From IMG/VR virus record IMGVR_UViG_2737471866_000010: a stretch of 37,527 nt of DNA. The stretch is one strand, 5' to 3'. The notes below the pieces were generated by a model that worked only from the letters and a program-made list of their open reading frames with translations, ran no database searches and had not been told where the DNA came from. The translations under genes were made by a program, and so were the position numbers. Shown here piece by piece: positions 2,892-36,159 of this stretch. The stretch is from a virus. Lineage: Duplodnaviria > Heunggongvirae > Uroviricota > Caudoviricetes. The number at the start of each line of letters is the position of its first letter. Position 1 is the stretch's first letter.

Positions 2892-3970
2892 CAGAACGGG
2901 TCCTCCTGTACTCTGGCTTTTTTCTTTTTCCGCGCGCCGGGGGCTTCGGGTTCAGGCAGATAAGCATCAGGTGGGCCGACACGGATTTCCGTCAGGGTGC
3001 CGTTCTGGTCCTGAGTAAACGTGACTTCCGAGACAAGCAGTTCGGTATTGTCGAAACCACAGACCGGATCGAAGACAATCACCCGCTGGTTGGGCTGCCA
3101 CAGCGTACCGTTACCCTGTCGCCAGCCCTGCACCACATAGGTGGTTTCATCCGTCCGCGCCGCCCGTTGTCGGGCTTCAAAGTCAGCACGCGCAATACAG
3201 CCTGCCCCCGTGGCCTGCCCTGTCTGCCTGATATACATCGGACGGTAACGGGCAATAAATGCGTCCTCTGTGCGGGCCCGCAGCGCGGTGGTGGTGGCCT
3301 CACCGAAATCATCGTCGTTTCCGGCACGCTGCCCCGCCACCTGGTAAACAGAAAACCGCTCCCGGATACTCTTCTCCGTATCGCAGGAAAGGATGTTTTC
3401 CCCGAGTACCAGCGCGGTATGTGCCCGCGTTGAGCCAATACCGCCAATCACCAGCCTGCCGTGCGGGTCGTCGTAAGCCAGTGCCTGCTGCTGACCGAGT
3501 ATTTTGTTGATCACCTCAATCACCGTTTCGCCGTGATCAGGCTGGACATCAGGAATAACACCCGACGGCGCACCGTTGTTCACCACCTCAATGCCGAAAG
3601 GCGCAGCAAGCGCCTGCGCAATCTGTACCAGCGATCGTCCGTTAAACTGTGTCGGTTCGGCTGCACAGTCAATCAGGTCAGCGGTCAGACTACGTCCGGC
3701 AATACCGGTGCTGACCGAACGGGCATCGTAACGAACGGGGGTCGCCTCCACCCAGCCGGTGATCACCAGCTCATCACCAATCAGCACTTCCACTTTTGAA
3801 CCATTTTTAATGCGCGGCTGAAGCGTGGTGATACCATCATCTCCCGGCCACTGGCGGGTGATCTCCACACTGAAATCCCGCGCCAGTCGTTCAACACCGG
3901 CACCGATGCGCACCGATGTCCAGCCATTCCACTCCCGGCCATTTACCCGTAGCGTGACATTGTCGTTCAT
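2891..3970 (-). CDS. Tail/baseplate hub protein (Mu gp44 / P2 gpD-like)
   Basis: 359-aa ORF following the DNA circulation gene, as in Mu. Confidence 0.55.
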   Translation of the reverse strand: MNDNVTLRVNGREWNGWTSVRIGAGVERLARDFSVEITRQWPGDDGITTLQPRIKNGSKVEVLIGDELVITGWVEATPVRYDARSVSTGIAGRSLTADLIDCAAEPTQFNGRSLVQIAQALAAPFGIEVVNNGAPSGVIPDVQPDHGETVIEVINKILGQQQALAYDDPHGRLVIGGIGSTRAHTALVLGENILSCDTEKSIRERFSVYQVAGQRAGNDDDFGEATTTALRARTEDAFIARYRPMYIRQTGQATGAGCIARADFEARQRAARTDETTYVVQGWRQGNGTLWQPNQRVIVFDPVCGFDNTELLVSEVTFTQDQNGTLTEIRVGPPDAYLPEPEAPGARKKKKARVQEDPF

Positions 3971-29198: not shown

Positions 29199-29885
29199 GT
29201 GAAAACACTGGCAGAACGATTAAAGATAGGTAGAGAGAAAGCTGGCATGAGCCAAGCTCAACTAGCTGAAAAAATTGGACTTTCACAACAATCTGTAGCC
29301 AAAATAGAGAATGGCGAAACTCTACAACCGCGCAAAATTAAAGAAATTGCAAAAGTTTTAGGTGTATCACAAAAGTGGTTACAACTTGGTATTGAAGACA
29401 ACGCATCCATACCTGATCTTGTTGTAAAAGAAGCAGAAAGCACCGCATTAGACCCCGATATTTTCGTAAACATTCCTGTTTTAGATGTCGAGTTATCGGC
29501 AGGTAACGGATGTCTGGCTGAAATAGTTGAATCAGCTATTGACTGGTTTCCATTAAGAAGAGCAGATTTGAGAAAATCTGGCGTATGTGCATCTAATGCC
29601 AAGATCGTAAAAATATGGGGGAACAGTTTATTACCGGTTCTCAATAATGGAGATCTTGTTGCCGTTGATATTTCTCAAACCGTTCCTATTCGTGATGGCG
29701 ATCTTTATGCCGTACGAGATGGTGTATTGCTAAGGGTTAAAATACTTATCAACTTACCTGACGGTGGCTTGATTCTTAGAAGCTTCAACAAAGATGAGTA
29801 CCCAGATGAAATACTCACCTTTGAAGATAGACGAGCCAGAATTCATGTTATAGGTAGGGTATTCTGGTCATCGCGAACTTGGTAA
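29199..29885 (+). CDS. cI: CI-type repressor (HTH-XRE plus S24 LexA-like peptidase domain)
   Basis: 228-aa ORF with GTG start after AGAGAGGGA; N-terminal HTH (MSQAQLAEKIGLSQQSVAKIENGE) and C-terminal autocleavage-type domain (A-G pair in LSAGNG, GNSLLP Ser motif, later Lys). Confidence 0.85.
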   Translation: MKTLAERLKIGREKAGMSQAQLAEKIGLSQQSVAKIENGETLQPRKIKEIAKVLGVSQKWLQLGIEDNASIPDLVVKEAESTALDPDIFVNIPVLDVELSAGNGCLAEIVESAIDWFPLRRADLRKSGVCASNAKIVKIWGNSLLPVLNNGDLVAVDISQTVPIRDGDLYAVRDGVLLRVKILINLPDGGLILRSFNKDEYPDEILTFEDRRARIHVIGRVFWSSRTW

Positions 29886-30758
29886 TGCATCGAAAAGCAT
29901 TTCTTCAGAAATAATTTTAAGTTTTGCACCATTATCATCCCTATAAGATATAGCCTTTTCGATCTTCCTTCCGTGACTTGAGAATTTCCAATCACGGGAG
30001 GAAAGCGTCCCAATTACTAAAAAATCCAACTTTTGAGTAATTCCACTACTGATGTTCCCACCAGCATTTTTAATCAAATTTTCAACTACGGCTCTCTTTC
30101 CTGCAACAAAAGTGCCTGTAAGACAATAGGTTTTACCCTCTAACTCTATCGAAGCCCCTACATCAATAGGCAGCCTGGTCGCCAAACCATCCACCACCCC
30201 ACTTTCCAAGTCACATCCTGTGAAGTCTACTAATGCCTTATGTAGAGTTAAACTCTCATCTTCAGTAATAACACCATCTTTAAGAATTTCCTTTACAAGT
30301 GCATAAAGTTTTTTTCCTGGGTAGTTGTTCTTCAAAGCTCCATTTTGCTCAAGCCACCAATTAAGATATCTTATTTCTTCTTGAGTTAAGTTCCGATCAG
30401 CAATTAATCCTTTACATAGTCCATTAAGTAAATGGACATCTACATCCTTGGAGTAAAAATCAATTTCAGGGATATCAAGAATTTCCCTCTGTATTTGGAG
30501 AAGGCTATTTTTAAGGTCATCACGTTCTTCTGATGTGATTATTCCATCCGCAAGAATATCCGACACCCGTGCTGATAGACTTTTTATAACTCCATTATTG
30601 ATAATCTGCTTTGCTTCAAGTAACCATGTATCTAAGTAAAGAACCTCCTCTTCACGGACAACTCCATCTGCAATGATTCCATCAATGATGCTAATCAAGT
30701 TAGCAAATAACTTGTCCCGGTTCTGTGTGTAATTAAAAGCGTAAAGCGCGTCTTCCAT
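29868..30758 (-). CDS. BRCT-domain protein with four N-terminal ~40-aa helical repeats; moron in the rex-like position
   Basis: Start at internal ATG (M11) preceded by AAGGAGG; repeats carrying DG[VI][IV]T/REEE; C-terminal GKTYCLTGTF...LDFLVIG...KLKIISEEMLFDAL resembles the BRCT domain of NAD-dependent ligase; AT-rich; convergent with cI, overlapping its 3' end by 18 nt. Confidence 0.6.
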   Translation of the reverse strand: MEDALYAFNYTQNRDKLFANLISIIDGIIADGVVREEEVLYLDTWLLEAKQIINNGVIKSLSARVSDILADGIITSEERDDLKNSLLQIQREILDIPEIDFYSKDVDVHLLNGLCKGLIADRNLTQEEIRYLNWWLEQNGALKNNYPGKKLYALVKEILKDGVITEDESLTLHKALVDFTGCDLESGVVDGLATRLPIDVGASIELEGKTYCLTGTFVAGKRAVVENLIKNAGGNISSGITQKLDFLVIGTLSSRDWKFSSHGRKIEKAISYRDDNGAKLKIISEEMLFDALPSSR

Positions 30759-30799
30759 ACAACCTCCTTTTTTTGATAATCCTTGCACTCCTTGGCTAC

Positions 30800-30890
30800 T
30801 CGTTCAAACCACATAAAGTTGTTGACAACATTCAAAACCACAACTAAATTACAACTTAAAGGTGTTAAAACAACGAACAGGCAGGACGCC
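30800..30890. promoter_or_regulatory. OL-like operator region with candidate PL promoter (-35 TTGACA 30822-30827, -10 TAAATT 30845-30850, plus strand)
   Basis: Shares ACATAAAGTTGT and ACAACTTAAAGGTGTT with the cro-cI operator region; consensus -35 with 17-bp spacer to a -10-like hexamer, directed toward the early-left genes. Confidence 0.45.
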
Positions 30891-30966
30891 CACGAAGTAG
30901 CCGCCTGGGGCATATGAAGTCCAGGATGATTCGTTAGCAACAAAAAAGCGCCCTACAGGACGCTTA

Positions 30967-31011
30967 GCTCTTTAACAATCTGGTCCCCATCAACAAGTAA
31001 CTGATAACTTG
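30967..31011 (+). promoter_or_regulatory. boxA-like element (GCTCTTTAACAA) followed by a small hairpin in the early-left leader
   Basis: 12-mer matching the rrn-type boxA consensus, about 110 nt downstream of candidate PL and before the first early-left ORF; hairpin caagt-aactgata-acttg. Confidence 0.3.
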
Positions 31012-31023
31012 AGGAGGTGTGAA

Positions 31024-31230
31024 ATGCACAAAACAGAACCCAAAATCGTCGCGCCTGGCTACACAGATGAGGAAATTTATGAGTGGATGACAAAGAAGCT
31101 GGCAGCTATAAACCAGCTTCGTGAAGTGCTGTCTTATCGACAGGAAACAATAGACTCCTTAAAAAAACTGGATCAGGAAATCACGGTTTTATCACAGGAT
31201 GTTACTTTAGATATTGTGCAGACAAATTAG
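31024..31230 (+). CDS. Small hypothetical early-left protein (68 aa)
   Basis: Start at internal ATG (M6 of ORF 31009..31230) preceded by GAGGAGG; not Arg-rich, so not N-like. Confidence 0.4.
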   Translation: MHKTEPKIVAPGYTDEEIYEWMTKKLAAINQLREVLSYRQETIDSLKKLDQEITVLSQDVTLDIVQTN

Positions 31231-31636
31231 GATCCCATTCATTTTCGTCAAAATCATCAAAGTGATGAATTTGTGATCTCCAGTCTCGATAATCTAAAAA
31301 TTTCTGGGCGGTTACGCTTATTTTATCAAGTGTGAGTTCATCCTGAATTGAAAGAAGAAGTTCATCAAATTTCATCTCATTAATCTGTTTTGGCATCCAG
31401 TGATGCTTCATCAGAATAAGGTGAACCAGAGCCTTTTTCCCATTCAACTGATTATAGGGAGTGCCGAATTTCTTCCGGTGCTCATGTAAGACAAGGTCCA
31501 GAAGAGTAAGTAATGTTGCCCTTGATTCAACTTTGCTTATTTCGACTGATGACACTACCCCACTGATTTCAATGCCCCGATACTTTCCAACATTTTCACA
31601 GTGGGATTTGTACAGCGTGTAGATATTACCGGACAT
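31202..31636 (-). CDS. Hypothetical protein, AT-rich moron antisense to the early-left operon
   Basis: 144-aa ORF with ATG after AAAGGAAAAG; visibly lower GC than neighbours; opposite orientation to surrounding early genes. Confidence 0.45.
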   Translation of the reverse strand: MSGNIYTLYKSHCENVGKYRGIEISGVVSSVEISKVESRATLLTLLDLVLHEHRKKFGTPYNQLNGKKALVHLILMKHHWMPKQINEMKFDELLLSIQDELTLDKISVTAQKFLDYRDWRSQIHHFDDFDENEWDPNLSAQYLK

Positions 31637-32104
31637 TTCTTTTCCTTTTGCATTGTTGGGGATAACCAGATTAACCGAATCCTTGTTGTTGGGGAATAAC
31701 CAGGTCCACCTCGCCTGATGTGGCTAAAAGCAGGCACATAACAGCTAAGTATTTTCAACCAGAGAGAATCCTTAGCGTTGTGGTGAATGCGGCTCAGCGC
31801 ACGCGGGTTAAGGTTGAGGCTGACAGTCGACCTTCTGTGGATACCCACCCGCCTGGTGTGCAACCTTCGCCAGGCACCGGGAGGCACCCGGCACCACAAC
31901 TTTATGCTGTGTGTAGTCTTGGCGGTACCAGCTTGTACCCTTGCTTCCGGCTGGTACCGTCCTTTTTACAAAACAGAGAAGAGCATCACCGGACGACGGG
32001 CTCATAACCCAATCCATCCGGGCGGCAGTCACCGCAGGTGTTCTTCTCTGTTTTGTGGAGAAACTAACCGACCTTGCAGGGTCGATATGATGAGGAGCAG
32101 CAAA

Positions 32105-34374: not shown

Positions 34375-34679
34375 TGACCACTTTTACCGACAAAGAACTG
34401 ATTAAAGAAATTAAAGAGCGTATCAGCAGTCTTGACGTGCGAGACGATATTGAGCGCCGTGCTTATGAAATCACACTCCTATCTCTGGAAGTAGAACCAG
34501 ATGAACGCGAAGCTTATGAATTATTCATGGAAAAGCGTTTCGGTGACTTAGTAGATCGTCGGAGAGCAAAAAACGGCGATAAAGAATACATGGCATGGGA
34601 TATGACTCTCGGTTGGATCGTCTGGCAGCAACGAGCTGGTATCCATTTTTCAACAATGTCACAGCAAGAGGTGAAATAA
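34374..34679 (+). CDS. YfdT-like hypothetical phage protein
   Basis: 101-aa ORF; start overlaps the upstream stop and its own stop overlaps the xis start (TAATG). Confidence 0.4.
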   Translation: MTTFTDKELIKEIKERISSLDVRDDIERRAYEITLLSLEVEPDEREAYELFMEKRFGDLVDRRRAKNGDKEYMAWDMTLGWIVWQQRAGIHFSTMSQQEVK

Positions 34680-35029
34680 TGGAGCCATACAGCCTCACAC
34701 TCGATGAGGCCTGTCATTTTCTCAAGATATCCAGACCGACTGCCATTAACTGGATACGCACAGGGCGTCTTCAGGCAACACGCAAAGATCCCACTAAGAA
34801 TAAATCTCCTTACCTCACAACACGACAAGCCTGCATTGCGGCTCTTCAGTCTCCGCTGCATACTGTCCAGGTGAGCGCGGGTGATGGCATAACAGAGGAA
34901 AGAAAATGTCACTCTTCCGCAGAGGTGAAATATGGTACGCCAGTTTCACATTGCCGAACGGTAAAAGATTTAAACAGTCTCTTGGAACAAAGGACAAAAG
35001 GCAGGCGACAGAACTCCATGACAAGCTAA
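34679..35029 (+). CDS. xis: Excisionase (P22 Xis / AlpA-like HTH)
   Basis: Start at internal ATG (M29 of ORF 34595..35029) after AGAGGTG; [34 protein letters not shown]; 116 aa, overlapping the integrase start. Confidence 0.6.
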
Positions 35030-36069
35030 AGGCTGAAGCATGGCGGGTCAGCAAACTTGGTGAAATACCTGATATAACGTTCGAGGAAGCGTGTGTCAGG
35101 TGGCTTGAAGAGAAAGCACATAAAAAATCACTGGACGATGACAAAAGCCGGATCGGATTCTGGCTTCAACATTTCGCAGGAATGCAACTAAGAGACATTA
35201 CTGAATCAAAAATTTATTCAGCAATGCAGAAAATGACGAACCGGCGTCATGAGGAAAACTGGAAACTCAGGGCAGAAGCATGCAGAAAAAAAGGGAAACC
35301 TGTTCCAGAATACACGCCAAAACCAGCGTCCGTTGCAACGAAGGCTACGCATCTTTCATTTATAAAGGCCCTACTAAGAGCCGCAGAGCGTGAATGGAAA
35401 ATGCTGGATAAGGCACCAATTATTAAAGTGCCTCAACCAAAGAATAAACGGATCCGCTGGCTGGAGCCCCATGAAGCACAAAGACTGATTGATGAATGTC
35501 CGGAGCCATTAAAGTCTGTTGTTGAATTTGCACTGGCAACAGGCTTAAGACGCTCGAACATCATCAACCTTGAATGGCAACAAATAGATATGCAGCGCCG
35601 GGTGGCATGGATAAACCCGGAAGAGAGTAAATCAAACCGCGCAATCGGCGTTGCGCTGAATGATACTGCATGTCGCGTTTTGAAAAAACAAATCGGGAAT
35701 CATCACCGTTGGGTATTTGTGTACAAGGAAAGCTGTACCAAACCAGACGGAACGAAAGCGCCAACAGTAAGGAAGATGCGGTATGACGCAAACACAGCCT
35801 GGAAAGCAGCGCTGAGACGGGCTGGTATTGATGATTTCAGATTTCACGACTTGAGACACACCTGGGCAAGTTGGCTGGTTCAAGCCGGAGTCCCGTTGTC
35901 AGTGTTACAGGAAATGGGAGGCTGGGAGTCTATCGAAATGGTTCGTCGATATGCTCACCTTGCACCTAATCACCTTACCGAACACGCACGGCAAATAGAC
36001 TCGATCCTGAACCCATCGGTCCCAAATTTGTCCCAGTCAAAAAATAAGGAAGGTACTAATGATGTGTAA
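34906..36069 (+). CDS. int: Tyrosine integrase (P22-type, thrW-targeting)
   Basis: 387-aa ORF with C-terminal catalytic pattern ([10 protein letters not shown]...RRYAHL); ends 15 bp from the tRNA-Thr 3' end. Confidence 0.9.
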
Positions 36070-36083
36070 CTTATTGATTTAAA

Positions 36084-36159
36084 TGGTGCCGATAATAGGA
36101 GTCGAACCTACGACCTTCGCATTACGAATGCGCTGCTCTACCAACTGAGCTATATCGGC
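36084..36159 (-). tRNA. thrW: tRNA-Thr (anticodon CGU), thrW
   Basis: Reverse complement reads GCCGATATAGCTCAGTTGGTAGAGCAGCGCATTCGTAATGCGAAGGTCGTAGGTTCGACTCCTATTATCGGCACCA: 7-bp acceptor stem, D and T arms, CGT anticodon, 3' CCA. Confidence 0.9.

What the first reader, a model, noticed from the sequence alone, without database searches (positions are those of the whole stretch)
31202..31703. AT-rich antisense gene in the early-left operon preceded by two direct repeats
A 144-aa ORF of unknown function lies on the minus strand inside the plus-strand early-left operon and overlaps the 3' end of the first early-left ORF. Immediately upstream of its start are two near-identical direct repeats, ttgttggggataaccag (about 31653-31669) and ttgttggggaataaccag (about 31686-31703), spaced about 33 bp. 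The repeat core TTATCCCCA is one mismatch from a DnaA-box-like 9-mer, so these may be regulator binding sites controlling this gene.
Basis: seen in the sequence. Interest (0 to 1): 0.4.

Follow-up and report, generated by a model that had tools for sequence, protein, structure and literature searches.

The report
SieB-type antisense cassette, unknown cargo gene
The two repeats belong to a promoter-plus-antisense-RNA control region already known from the sieB superinfection-exclusion genes of phages lambda and P22, here attached to a different, uncharacterised prophage gene that always travels with a small partner gene.

Summary
The 144-aa minus-strand ORF (31202-31636) is a real gene of the NCBIfam "ECs1072 family phage-associated protein". 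The two repeats (31653-31669, 31686-31703) are real and non-random.

They are not DnaA boxes. The about 115 bp upstream of the gene is homologous to the region upstream of sieB in lambda and P22. A covariance model built only from lambda/P22-type sequences hits window 31631-31745 (+) at 67 bits, E about 4e-13.

P22's annotated promoter and mRNA start map as follows:
- The distal repeat covers the -35 region.
- The -10 (TAATCT, 31673-31668) lies between the repeats.
- The proximal repeat is the mRNA's 5' end.

The opposite strand corresponds to P22's sas antisense RNA. There the distal repeat caps a stem-loop with a GGGG loop, supported by compensatory changes.

The gene therefore sits in the sieB slot: antisense in the pL operon. 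By inference it is expressed from the prophage and silenced by pL-derived antisense RNA during lytic growth.

The cargo is not SieB, and its fold has no known relative. It is linked almost always to a convergent, overlapping 68-aa partner gene that lies sense to the lytic operon, even in distant homologs between Q and the holin.

Its function is inferred only: exclusion or abortive infection, with the partner as antidote.

The parts
31202..31636 (-). 144-aa gene of the ECs1072 family phage-associated proteins. All-alpha, function unknown. This is the cargo of the cassette.
   Evidence: NCBIfam NF033230 157.8 bits against a cut-off of 70. phrog_5286 E=1.5e-90. About 65 cluster representatives, all of about 145-155 aa, all from Enterobacterales. 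AF2 pLDDT 87.4, pTM 0.84. No PDB or BFVD analogue.
31631..31745 (+). sas-like antisense RNA element. Its complementary strand is the sieB-type promoter and leader.
   Evidence: Covariance model R1, built only from lambda, P22, ev207, Kp4866-6 and 606R2 sequences, hits here full length at 67.4 bits, E=3.8e-13. 65-68% identity to the P22 and lambda regions. The P22 sas RNA sequence comes from PMC13397905.
31686..31703 (.). Distal direct repeat. On the gene strand it overlaps the -35 region (TTCCCC, 31696-31691). On the + strand it is the top of sas hairpin 2.
   Evidence: Alignment to the P22 promoter feature 29690-29720. Hairpin CCU.GUUGUU[GGGG]AAUAAC.AGG spans 31681-31704 (+), -7.2 kcal/mol. 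Six of 10 pairs show double changes across 12 sequences.
31668..31673 (-). Predicted -10 hexamer TAATCT of the sieB-type promoter.
   Evidence: It aligns with the P22 -10 TAAACT (BK000583). T1, A2 and T6 are invariant in all 12 aligned cassettes while the middle bases vary (invariant A38, T42, A43 on the other strand).
31653..31669 (.). Proximal direct repeat. It contains the predicted transcription start (about 31661-31663, minus strand) and the 5' end of the mRNA. On the + strand it is the part of sas that pairs with that 5' end.
   Evidence: The P22 sieB RNA start at 29727 is the base before CCCCTACAG. Position inferred by alignment.
31706..31737 (+). Conserved 3' domain of the sas-like RNA. 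CCAC(31706-09)/GUGG(31720-23) and GCCUG(31713-17)/CAGGC(31731-35) are either alternative stems or a pseudoknot.
   Evidence: Nearly invariant in all cassettes and also kept in SfV, which lacks the repeats. There is no covariation, because the pairs are invariant.
31024..31230 (+). 68-aa partner gene (phrog_1744). It is the first gene after pL, convergent with the ECs1072 gene and overlapping it by 29 nt.
   Evidence: phrog_1744 E=7.8e-35. RefSeq CDS. Homologous partners with the motif EPxxxxPGxxxEElEdWL are seen in 10 of 11 ECs1072 loci examined, in both genomic contexts.
31095..31120 (-). First terminator-like hairpin for the ECs1072 transcript, lying inside the partner ORF.
   Evidence: -15.6 kcal/mol, z=-4.3, with a weak U tract. 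Analogous terminators lie 30-60 nt after the stop codon in L090, L094 and L096.
30946..30965 (-). Second, stronger minus-strand intrinsic terminator (AAGCGUCC-UGUA-GGGCGCUU + UUUUUUG). It marks the left end of the swapped module.
   Evidence: -11.5 kcal/mol on the - strand against -7.5 on the + strand. The module 30937-31705 is present in SfIV and replaced in SfV.
30822..30850 (+). pL-like promoter (TTGACA-17-TAAATT). It would drive the partner gene, the antisense of the ECs1072 gene and the sas-like RNA.
   Evidence: It aligns with the TTGACA..CATAAT pL region of SfV and SfIV.

Best explanation
The locus is a sieB-type cassette with a different cargo.

Shown by homology:
- The about 115 bp upstream of the 144-aa gene is the same element that precedes sieB in lambda and P22.
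- On the gene (minus) strand it is a weak sigma-70 promoter. The -35 lies in the distal repeat. The -10 TAATCT (31673-31668) lies between the repeats. The start falls at about 31661-31663, the first bases of the proximal repeat.
- This gives a 25-27 nt unstructured C/A-rich leader ending in AAGGAAAAG-N3-AUG.
- On the plus strand the same DNA corresponds to P22's sas antisense RNA.

Inferred mechanism:
- In the lysogen cI shuts pL. The sieB-type promoter then expresses the ECs1072 protein, and the mRNA runs antisense across the partner gene to terminators at 31095 and 30946.
- On induction or infection, pL transcription runs the other way. It makes the 68-aa partner protein first.
- It then makes RNA antisense to the whole ECs1072 gene, including the sas-like segment. 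That segment covers the mRNA 5' end, Shine-Dalgarno and AUG, so ECs1072 translation stops.
- The repeats look alike because the mRNA 5' end (CCCCAACAA) is complementary to both G-rich repeat copies of the sas-like RNA. The distal copy displays GGGG in a hairpin loop. I infer a docking or nucleation role for it.

Inferred protein function:
- By position and wiring, ECs1072 is a prophage-expressed exclusion or abortive-infection-type protein.
- The lytic-operon partner is its antidote, playing the role Esc plays for SieB.
For: Homology:
- Model R1, built without any window-type sequence, hits 31631-31745 at 67.4 bits, E=3.8e-13. It also hits all close ECs1072 loci at 60-64 bits.
- blastn of the leader finds lambda 34394-34464, which ends 18 nt before the sieB ATG at 34482.

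Promoter mapping:
- BK000583 annotates the sieB promoter at 29690-29720, the RNA start at 29727, the SieB ATG at 29758 and Esc at 29830.
- T1, A2 and T6 of the -10 are invariant in 12 cassettes.

sas:
- The published P22 sas RNA sequence (PMC13397905) is the reverse complement of that region.

Structure:
- In hairpin 2, 6 of 10 pairs have changes on both sides and 89% of cells are paired.
- 0 of 500 shuffles reach the observed values, and slid controls give 31-54% paired.
- Six sequences carry a G-U pair that would be C-A on the other strand.

Repeat concerted change:
- The cores are CCCCAAC in one cassette type and CCCCTAC in the other.
- Distal and proximal copies share 7-13 exact nt in 10 of 11 cassettes.

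Same slot:
- The gene is antisense in the pL operon and convergent with its first gene, as sieB is with N (lambda) and gene 24 (P22).

Module behaviour:
- The cassette plus gene plus terminator is swapped as a block against SfV.
- The same cassette precedes at least four unrelated cargos. These are SieB (PF14163), a Zn-ribbon coiled-coil protein, an 81-aa ORF in SfV, and ECs1072.

Partner linkage:
- The partner is present in two different contexts.

Expression in lysogens:
- P22 sieB is expressed from the prophage (abstract of PMC10461980, listed).
- The namesake gene ECs1072 gave a signal on Sakai microarrays (PMC2241611).
Against: - No transcript data exist for this prophage. The start site, the promoter and the very existence of a discrete sas-like RNA are inferred by homology.
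- The -35 (TTCCCC) is poor, and the consensus scan finds no minus-strand promoter here.
- The sas-like RNA of this window is not thermodynamically special (z=+0.77). Hairpin 2 is only -7.2 kcal/mol, z=0.19, with a U/C mismatch.
- The covariation count was made on an alignment fitted to the model.
- The 3' domain shows no covariation.
- In P22, sas switches translation from SieB to an internal in-frame Esc start. The ECs1072 gene has no conserved internal start (alignment), so that part of the P22 mechanism cannot apply.
- Nothing links the ECs1072 protein to phage exclusion apart from its position. There are no PADLOC, Pfam, PDB or BFVD hits.
- Distant ECs1072 homologs lack this cassette.
Confidence: 0.7

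Rival explanations
1. The repeats are operator sites for a DNA-binding protein. This could be DnaA, or an unknown repressor that occupies the -35 and +1 positions and occludes RNA polymerase.
For: - Two like-oriented sites 33-34 bp apart (about three helical turns) flank the promoter core.
- This spacing is kept in lambda and P22.
- The two copies change together between cassette types, as expected if one protein reads both.
- The window's proximal copy contains TTATCCCCA, 8 of 9 matches to the DnaA box TTATCCACA.
Against: - The DnaA-like part is not conserved: ATATCCCCA, GATACCCCA, TTCACCCCT, ACAACCCCT.
- By my estimate from base frequencies, a one-mismatch DnaA box is expected roughly 28 times by chance in 37.5 kb.
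- No candidate regulator is encoded in the swapped module.
- The ECs1072 model shows no recognisable DNA-binding fold.
- Compensatory changes in the stem flanking the distal repeat are expected for an RNA hairpin, not for a protein site.
Confidence: 0.15
2. The conserved block works mainly for the plus-strand (pL) transcript. It would be a processing or stability element for the downstream STnc100-like RNA and yfdP operon. The minus-strand gene merely uses whatever promoter activity it offers, and the repeats have no role in controlling the 144-aa gene.
For: - The block directly abuts the STnc100-like match at 31747-31970 (+).
- Its 3' domain is kept in SfV-type phages without the repeats.
- The plus strand of 31700-32100 is far more structured than shuffles, z=-6.5.
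Against: - In lambda, P22, 606R2 and the Klebsiella phages the cassette is present and, in every case, is followed within 15-30 nt by the start codon of an antisense cargo gene. No STnc100 search was run on those loci.
- The -10 signature (T, A and T invariant) is on the minus strand.
- In P22 the promoter and RNA start are annotated there.
Confidence: 0.08
3. The repeats are a neutral tandem duplication or a recombination scar at the right edge of a mobile module, with no function.
For: - The SfV/SfIV mosaic boundary falls at 31705/31706, right after the distal repeat.
- Each repeat is followed by an AAGGA, as if the leader had been duplicated.
Against: - The pair is kept at the same spacing in 11 cassettes that are only 60-68% identical overall and carry unrelated cargo.
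- The leader is 80-86% identical where the protein is 53% identical (L219).
- Both copies are maintained alike within each cassette type.
Confidence: 0.05

Closest known systems
P22 sieB-esc-sas locus (Ranade & Poteete 1993, cited from memory; annotation in BK000583; sas sequence in PMC13397905)
   Same: - Homologous about 115-bp promoter/leader/antisense-RNA element (67 bits).
- The same two repeats at the same spacing, with the same predicted -10 position and mRNA start.
- The same genomic slot: antisense in the pL operon, convergent with the first pL gene.
   Different: - The cargo is not SieB (no PF14163), and it has no conserved internal Esc-type start.
- Repeat core is CCCCAAC instead of CCCCTAC.
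- The first pL gene is a 68-aa partner protein, not the antiterminator gene 24.
- The cargo and its partner overlap by 29 nt.
Lambda sieB (lambdap48, 34482-35036)
   Same: The upstream 34394-34464 aligns with the window leader, including both repeats 34 nt apart and the CCAC..CAGGC block. The gene is antisense between ral and N.
   Different: Different cargo protein. The lambda region has type-B repeats (ACCCCTACAG). The promoter in lambda was itself assigned by homology to P22 (from memory of Ranade & Poteete 1993, not read here).
Phage morons (independent promoter-gene-terminator units such as lambda bor/lom or HK97 gp15; general knowledge)
   Same: - Own promoter and own terminators.
- Lower G+C than the flanks.
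- Presence/absence polymorphism between otherwise near-identical phages.
   Different: This unit sits inside an early operon on the opposite strand. It is coupled to a cis-antisense RNA and to a lytic-strand partner gene, so it is not a simple autonomous insert.
IS10 RNA-IN/RNA-OUT type antisense control (general knowledge; works-like only)
   Same: The proposed first contact is between the single-stranded 5' end of the target mRNA and a hairpin loop of the antisense RNA. Pairing then spreads over the ribosome binding site.
   Different: No homology. Here the evidence for loop-to-5'-end nucleation is only sequence complementarity plus a conserved GGGG loop.

Membership tests
sieB-type promoter / sas antisense-RNA cassette (P22, lambda) | Sequence and structure similarity to the sas region of P22 and lambda | tested here: met
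   A covariance model built from lambda/P22-type sequences only hits window 31631-31745 (+) at 67.4 bits, E=3.8e-13, model positions 1-120 of 120. 65-68% identity.
sieB-type promoter / sas antisense-RNA cassette (P22, lambda) | Lies directly upstream of a gene that is antisense within the pL operon and convergent with the first pL gene | tested here: met
   Window: pL-like promoter at 30822-30850 (+), partner ORF (+), cargo (-).
sieB-type promoter / sas antisense-RNA cassette (P22, lambda) | -10 element and mRNA start between and at the two repeats, as annotated in BK000583 (sieB promoter and RNA start features) | tested here: inconclusive
   The aligned hexamer TAATCT keeps the invariant T, A and T. 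However, no transcript data exist for this phage, and the consensus scan does not call a promoter.
sieB-type promoter / sas antisense-RNA cassette (P22, lambda) | A discrete antisense RNA accumulates during infection or induction and blocks translation of the cargo | not testable with these tools
   Shown for P22 only (PMC13397905 reads in infected cells; reviews).
sieB-type promoter / sas antisense-RNA cassette (P22, lambda) | Cargo encodes SieB plus an in-frame internal Esc product | tested here: not met
   No PF14163 hit for the 144-aa protein, whereas the lambda and Kp4866-6 cargos hit it. No conserved internal Met in the family alignment.
ECs1072 family phage-associated protein (NCBIfam NF033230) | HMM score above the curated cut-off over the full length | tested here: met
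   157.8 bits against a cut-off of 70, residues 4-144 on profile positions 2-142 of 142. RefSeq names the identical protein WP_000016389.1 accordingly.
DnaA box pair | 9-mer matching TTATNCACA, conserved in homologous loci | tested here: not met
   The window's proximal copy has one mismatch. The distal copy carries an inserted T. The TTAT part varies in homologs while CCCC(A/T)AC is what is conserved.
Moron | Own promoter and terminator, atypical composition, present or absent between related phages | tested here: met
   G+C is 36-38% against 55% in the flank. The block 30937-31705 is replaced in SfV. The promoter is assigned by homology only.
Known anti-phage defence systems (PADLOC-DB v2) | HMM match of either protein | tested here: not met
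   No hit at E<=0.1 for the 144-aa protein or for the partner.

The most novel reading that the evidence does not exclude
The sieB slot of lambdoid phages is a 'socket': a conserved promoter plus antisense-RNA cassette that accepts unrelated prophage-expressed cargo.

The ECs1072 protein with its convergent 68-aa partner would be a previously unrecognised two-gene exclusion or abortive-infection system. The effector is made by the prophage. The partner, the first product of pL (or of the Q-dependent late operon in distant relatives), is the phage's own antidote. Reciprocal antisense transcription enforces the switch between the two.
Probability: 0.35. Interest if true: 0.65.

Novelty: new variant of a known kind. 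Interest (0 to 1): 0.45.

Why it matters
- It turns an anonymous 'hypothetical protein with repeats' into a testable unit. The promoter, mRNA start, antisense RNA and terminators can all be predicted base by base from the P22 paradigm.
- The sas/sieB control region is not private to sieB. The same region precedes at least four unrelated cargo genes in E. coli, Shigella, Salmonella and Klebsiella phages. That makes it a useful landmark for finding prophage-expressed (probably anti-phage) genes.
- It also flags the ECs1072-plus-partner pair as a candidate new exclusion/antidote system. The window-type module is present at 80% or more coverage in 272 of 5426 complete E. coli genomes. The family is spread across Enterobacterales.

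Tried and rejected
Protein searches without result:
- Pfam and PADLOC gave nothing for the 144-aa protein or its partner. NCBIfam and PHROGs gave only family names without function.
- A PDB sequence profile search gave nothing.
- Foldseek against BFVD gave nothing below E=0.46.
- afdb50 was not available.

Promoter and RNA leads:
- The consensus sigma-70 scan found no minus-strand promoter upstream.
- By eye I tried TTGAAA at 31758-53 as a -35, and sigma-54 and sigma-32 patterns. I dropped them because spacing was not conserved between homologs.
- I first suspected an mRNA-leader hairpin (GGAUU-CGGUU-AAUCU, one compensatory change in L005). However, the leader folds worse than shuffles (z=+1.5), and the promoter mapping puts half of it upstream of the start.
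- Rfam at gathering threshold has no family here. sas is not in Rfam.

Searches for more divergent copies:
- The alignment-based locus search failed on the full family.
- Genome, viral and metagenome scans returned almost only near-identical copies, so diversity had to come from the look-up of encoding contigs and the phage collection.

Structure claims I did not keep:
- Hairpin 1 (around the proximal repeat) is not in a consistent register between P22, lambda and the window, so I do not claim it.

Things I could not do:
- The two Ranade & Poteete 1993 papers are not held. What I say of them beyond the GenBank annotation is from memory.
Full report
**Setting.** The window is an SfIV/SfV-like lambdoid prophage of E. 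coli/Shigella. The 1.7 kb around the finding is 98.5-99.5% identical to Shigella phage SfIV and several E. coli phages. It occurs at 80% or more coverage in 272 of 5426 complete E. coli genomes.

The local order is as follows:
- cro (-)
- cI (+, 29199-29885; HTH_3 plus Peptidase_S24)
- a BRCT-domain gene (-)
- a pL-like promoter, TTGACA-17-TAAATT, at 30822-30850 (+), which aligns with the pL region of SfV and SfIV
- a small + ORF
- the 144-aa - ORF
- a G+C-rich non-coding stretch
- yfdP, yfdQ, yfdR ... xis, int (+), then a tRNA

**Observation.** The repeats sit at 31653-31669 and 31686-31703, differ by one inserted A, and start 33 nt apart. A repeat of this form appears in 0 of 60 Markov resamples of the window. 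The gene region is 36-38% G+C against 55% just upstream.

**The gene.**
- It is a full-length member of NCBIfam NF033230, 'ECs1072 family phage-associated protein' (157.8 bits, cut-off 70), and of phrog_5286.
- An exhaustive HMMER search finds about 65 cluster representatives of about 145-155 aa. The named ones all come from Enterobacterales.
- H72 and W134 are invariant, and R39, L46, L50, R54, G66, A69 and W80 are nearly invariant, in the 38-sequence alignment. W80 is invariant in the second 38-sequence alignment, the one used for the model.
- AlphaFold2 gives a confident all-alpha model (pLDDT 87.4, pTM 0.84).
- Its biochemical function is unknown.

**What the upstream region is.**
- Loci encoding homologs of 72%, 53% and 52% protein identity keep an almost unchanged block of about 90 nt upstream of the start codon. 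The flanks on both sides differ (80-86% identity for L219).
- A blastn search of that block against the phage collection found lambda at 34394-34464, plus P22-like phages annotated 'SieB'. In NC_001416, sieB starts at 34482 on the strand opposite to N and ral.
- The alignment shows a shared block, GTGCCTG(T)CTTTTA.CCAC.TCAGGC..GGTGG. It is followed in lambda and P22 by two direct repeats, ACCCCTACAG, 34 nt apart. These lie exactly where the window has CCCCAACAA twice.
- As an independent test I built a covariance model from five lambda/P22-type sequences only. It hits the window once, at 31631-31745 (+), full length, at 67.4 bits and E=3.8e-13. It also hits every close ECs1072 locus at 60-64 bits.

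**Mapping the parts.**
- The curated P22 record BK000583 annotates four sieB features. These are the promoter (29690-29720), the RNA start (29727), the SieB ATG (29758) and the internal Esc start (29830).
- Laid on the sequence, the -35 falls in the distal repeat. The -10 (TAAACT) falls between the repeats. The +1 is the base before the proximal CCCCTACAG.
- The aligned window hexamer is TAATCT (31673-31668). Across 12 cassettes its T1, A2 and T6 are invariant while the middle bases vary. This is the usual signature of a -10 element.
- The mRNA is therefore predicted to start at about 31661-31663, with a 25-27 nt leader.
- That leader is C/A-rich. The longer stretch containing it (31637-31745, minus strand) folds worse than shuffles (z=+1.5).
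- This is inference by homology. The consensus scan calls no promoter here, and the -35 is poor.

**The other strand.**
- A 2026 small-RNA study lists the P22 sas RNA sequence (127 nt; PMC13397905). It is the exact reverse complement of the sieB upstream region, from codon 2 through both repeats to the CAGGCAC block. The window's + strand at 31631-31745 is therefore a sas homolog.
- In that orientation the distal repeat is the top of a hairpin with a GGGG loop.
  - P22: UUCUCG.UGUA[GGGG]UACA-CGAGAA.
  - L219, L006 and Kp4882: AUCCU.GUUGUU[GGGG]AAUAGC-AGGAU (AAUGAC.C-AGGAU in Kp4882).
  - Window: CCU.GUUGUU[GGGG]AAUAAC.AGG, at 31681-31704.
- On a model-fitted alignment of 12 sequences, 6 of 10 pairs change on both sides and 89% of cells pair. 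No shuffle reaches the observed values, and slid controls fall to 31-54%.
- Six sequences have a G-U pair that would be a C-A mismatch on the gene strand. The distal repeat also lies upstream of the predicted mRNA start. The hairpin therefore makes sense only in the sas-sense RNA.
- Caveats:
  - The alignment leans towards the model.
  - The window's own hairpin is weak (-7.2 kcal/mol, z=0.19).
  - The whole element is not thermodynamically unusual (z=+0.77).
  - The 3' domain is invariant, so it is uninformative.
  - A hairpin around the proximal repeat is not in a consistent register, so I do not claim it.

**Why two alike copies.** Within each cassette type the two copies share the same core, CCCCAAC in one type and CCCCTAC in the other. 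They share 7-13 identical bases in 10 of 11 cassettes. The mRNA begins with this core, so both G-rich copies in the sas RNA are complementary to the mRNA 5' end. The proximal copy is its true antisense. The distal copy displays GGGG in a loop. I read the distal copy as serving two roles: the -35 region of the promoter, and a docking loop for the mRNA 5' end. A protein that reads both copies at -35 and +1 cannot be excluded.

**The DnaA idea fails.** The TTAT part is not conserved.

**Module and partner.**
- Against SfV, the stretch 30937-31705 is swapped as a block. This block comprises a minus-strand terminator, the partner ORF, the cargo and the repeats.
- The cargo transcript has two terminator-like hairpins on its strand.
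  - The first is at 31120-31095, inside the partner ORF (-15.6 kcal/mol, z=-4.3).
  - The second is at 30965-30946 and is followed by U6.
- The cargo mRNA is therefore antisense to part or all of the partner gene.
- The partner is 68 aa from the ATG at 31024 (phrog_1744).
- It has homologs next to ECs1072 genes in 10 of 11 loci examined, always convergent and overlapping by about 30-110 nt.
- In the distant loci (Proteus, Rouxiella, Enterobacter, Serratia, another E. coli) the pair sits between the Q antiterminator and the holin. The partner is again sense to the lytic operon and the ECs1072 gene antisense. Those loci lack the sas cassette and have a different upstream motif.
- Loci where the cassette carries other cargo lack the partner. 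So the partner goes with the protein, not with the cassette.

**Cargo diversity.** The same cassette precedes four unrelated cargo types:
- SieB (PF14163) in lambda, P22, ev207 and Klebsiella phage Kp4866-6.
- A Zn-ribbon coiled-coil protein of 171-189 aa in PhiR29_1, Kp4882-1 and 606R2.
- An unannotated 81-aa ORF in SfV, which has a partial cassette.
- ECs1072 here.

**Mechanism proposed.**
- Lysogen: pL is off, and the sieB-type promoter makes the ECs1072 mRNA and protein.
- Induction or infection: pL fires and the partner protein is made first. The transcript continues antisense through the cargo gene and the sas-like segment. It pairs with the leader, Shine-Dalgarno and AUG, and convergent transcription adds interference.
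- Shown: the homology, the layout, the conservation and the covariation of hairpin 2.
- Inferred: the start site, the existence and processing of a discrete sas-like RNA, and the translational block.
- Speculative: the protein roles. ECs1072 would be an exclusion or abortive-infection effector, and the partner would be its antidote in place of Esc.
- The cargos differ completely right after the ATG. A conserved sas promoter inside them is therefore unlikely, and a pL origin with processing is the simplest source of the antisense RNA.

**Comparison and novelty.** The cis element is a member of a known kind, the P22/lambda sieB promoter with sas. The cargo fails the SieB/Esc criteria, and the separate partner gene is a new feature. 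I therefore file the whole as a new variant of a known kind. I found no paper describing the cassette as shared by different cargo, and none on the ECs1072 function. The only mention of ECs1072 is a microarray table for strain Sakai.

Noticed in passing
window 31747-31970 (+), and 31700-32100 generally: The region directly after the sas-like element matches Rfam STnc100 (RF02076) at 43.4 bits, just under the gathering score of 47, E=9e-8. There is also a weak DicF-like match at 31908-31962. The + strand folds with z=-6.5 against -3.35 for the - strand. RefSeq calls 31781-32091 a frameshifted pseudogene, and SfIV annotates a 226-aa ORF fused to yfdP. The region looks like structured RNA instead.
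   Followed up: partly
window 31968-31992 / 32032-32056: An inverted repeat with 25-nt arms (84% complementary) forms a long hairpin just upstream of yfdP. A smaller hairpin at 32067-32086 precedes the yfdP start.
   Followed up: no
window 29868-30788 (-): A 306-aa BRCT-domain protein (PF00533 E=1.4e-6; weak PADLOC PDC-S48 hit E=2.7e-7) is wedged between cI and pL and overlaps the cI stop by 18 nt. It is absent from SfV and SfIV. It may be another prophage-expressed accessory or defence gene.
   Followed up: no
window 30802-30871 (+): The pL-like promoter TTGACA-17-TAAATT (30822-30850) is bracketed by a 21-nt inverted repeat (30802-30822 / 30851-30871). These are probably the OL operators of this immunity type. 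The corresponding SfV/SfIV sequence differs (ATGTACCC repeats).
   Followed up: no
L227 (PhiR29_1) 1311-1826; L223 (Kp4882-1) from 1412; L226 (606R2) 1304-1873: The same sieB-type cassette drives an unrelated 171-189 aa protein. It has an N-terminal coiled coil and a C-terminal CxxC...CxxC zinc-ribbon-like motif, with no Pfam or PADLOC family. It is another candidate exclusion gene. The PhiR29_1 annotation starts this CDS too far upstream, inside the leader.
   Followed up: partly
L002 (SfV, U82619) about 3050-3300, minus strand of the locus: SfV has an unannotated 81-aa ORF (MTFDEKELDNAINK...) with a good Shine-Dalgarno, behind the 3' half of the cassette. The record instead annotates orf33 on the opposite strand.
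   Followed up: no
L090, L092, L094, L096 upstream of the ECs1072-like genes: Distant family members between Q and the holin share a different upstream motif, GATATCGTnAAATCGCCAAA, about 45-50 nt before the start codon. Two of them also share a GCCAGA...TCTGGC hairpin. Function not examined.
   Followed up: no
window 36087-36159 (-) and 34906-36069 (+): A tRNA gene (71.8 bits) lies immediately after the integrase gene. It is the likely attachment site of the prophage.
   Followed up: no
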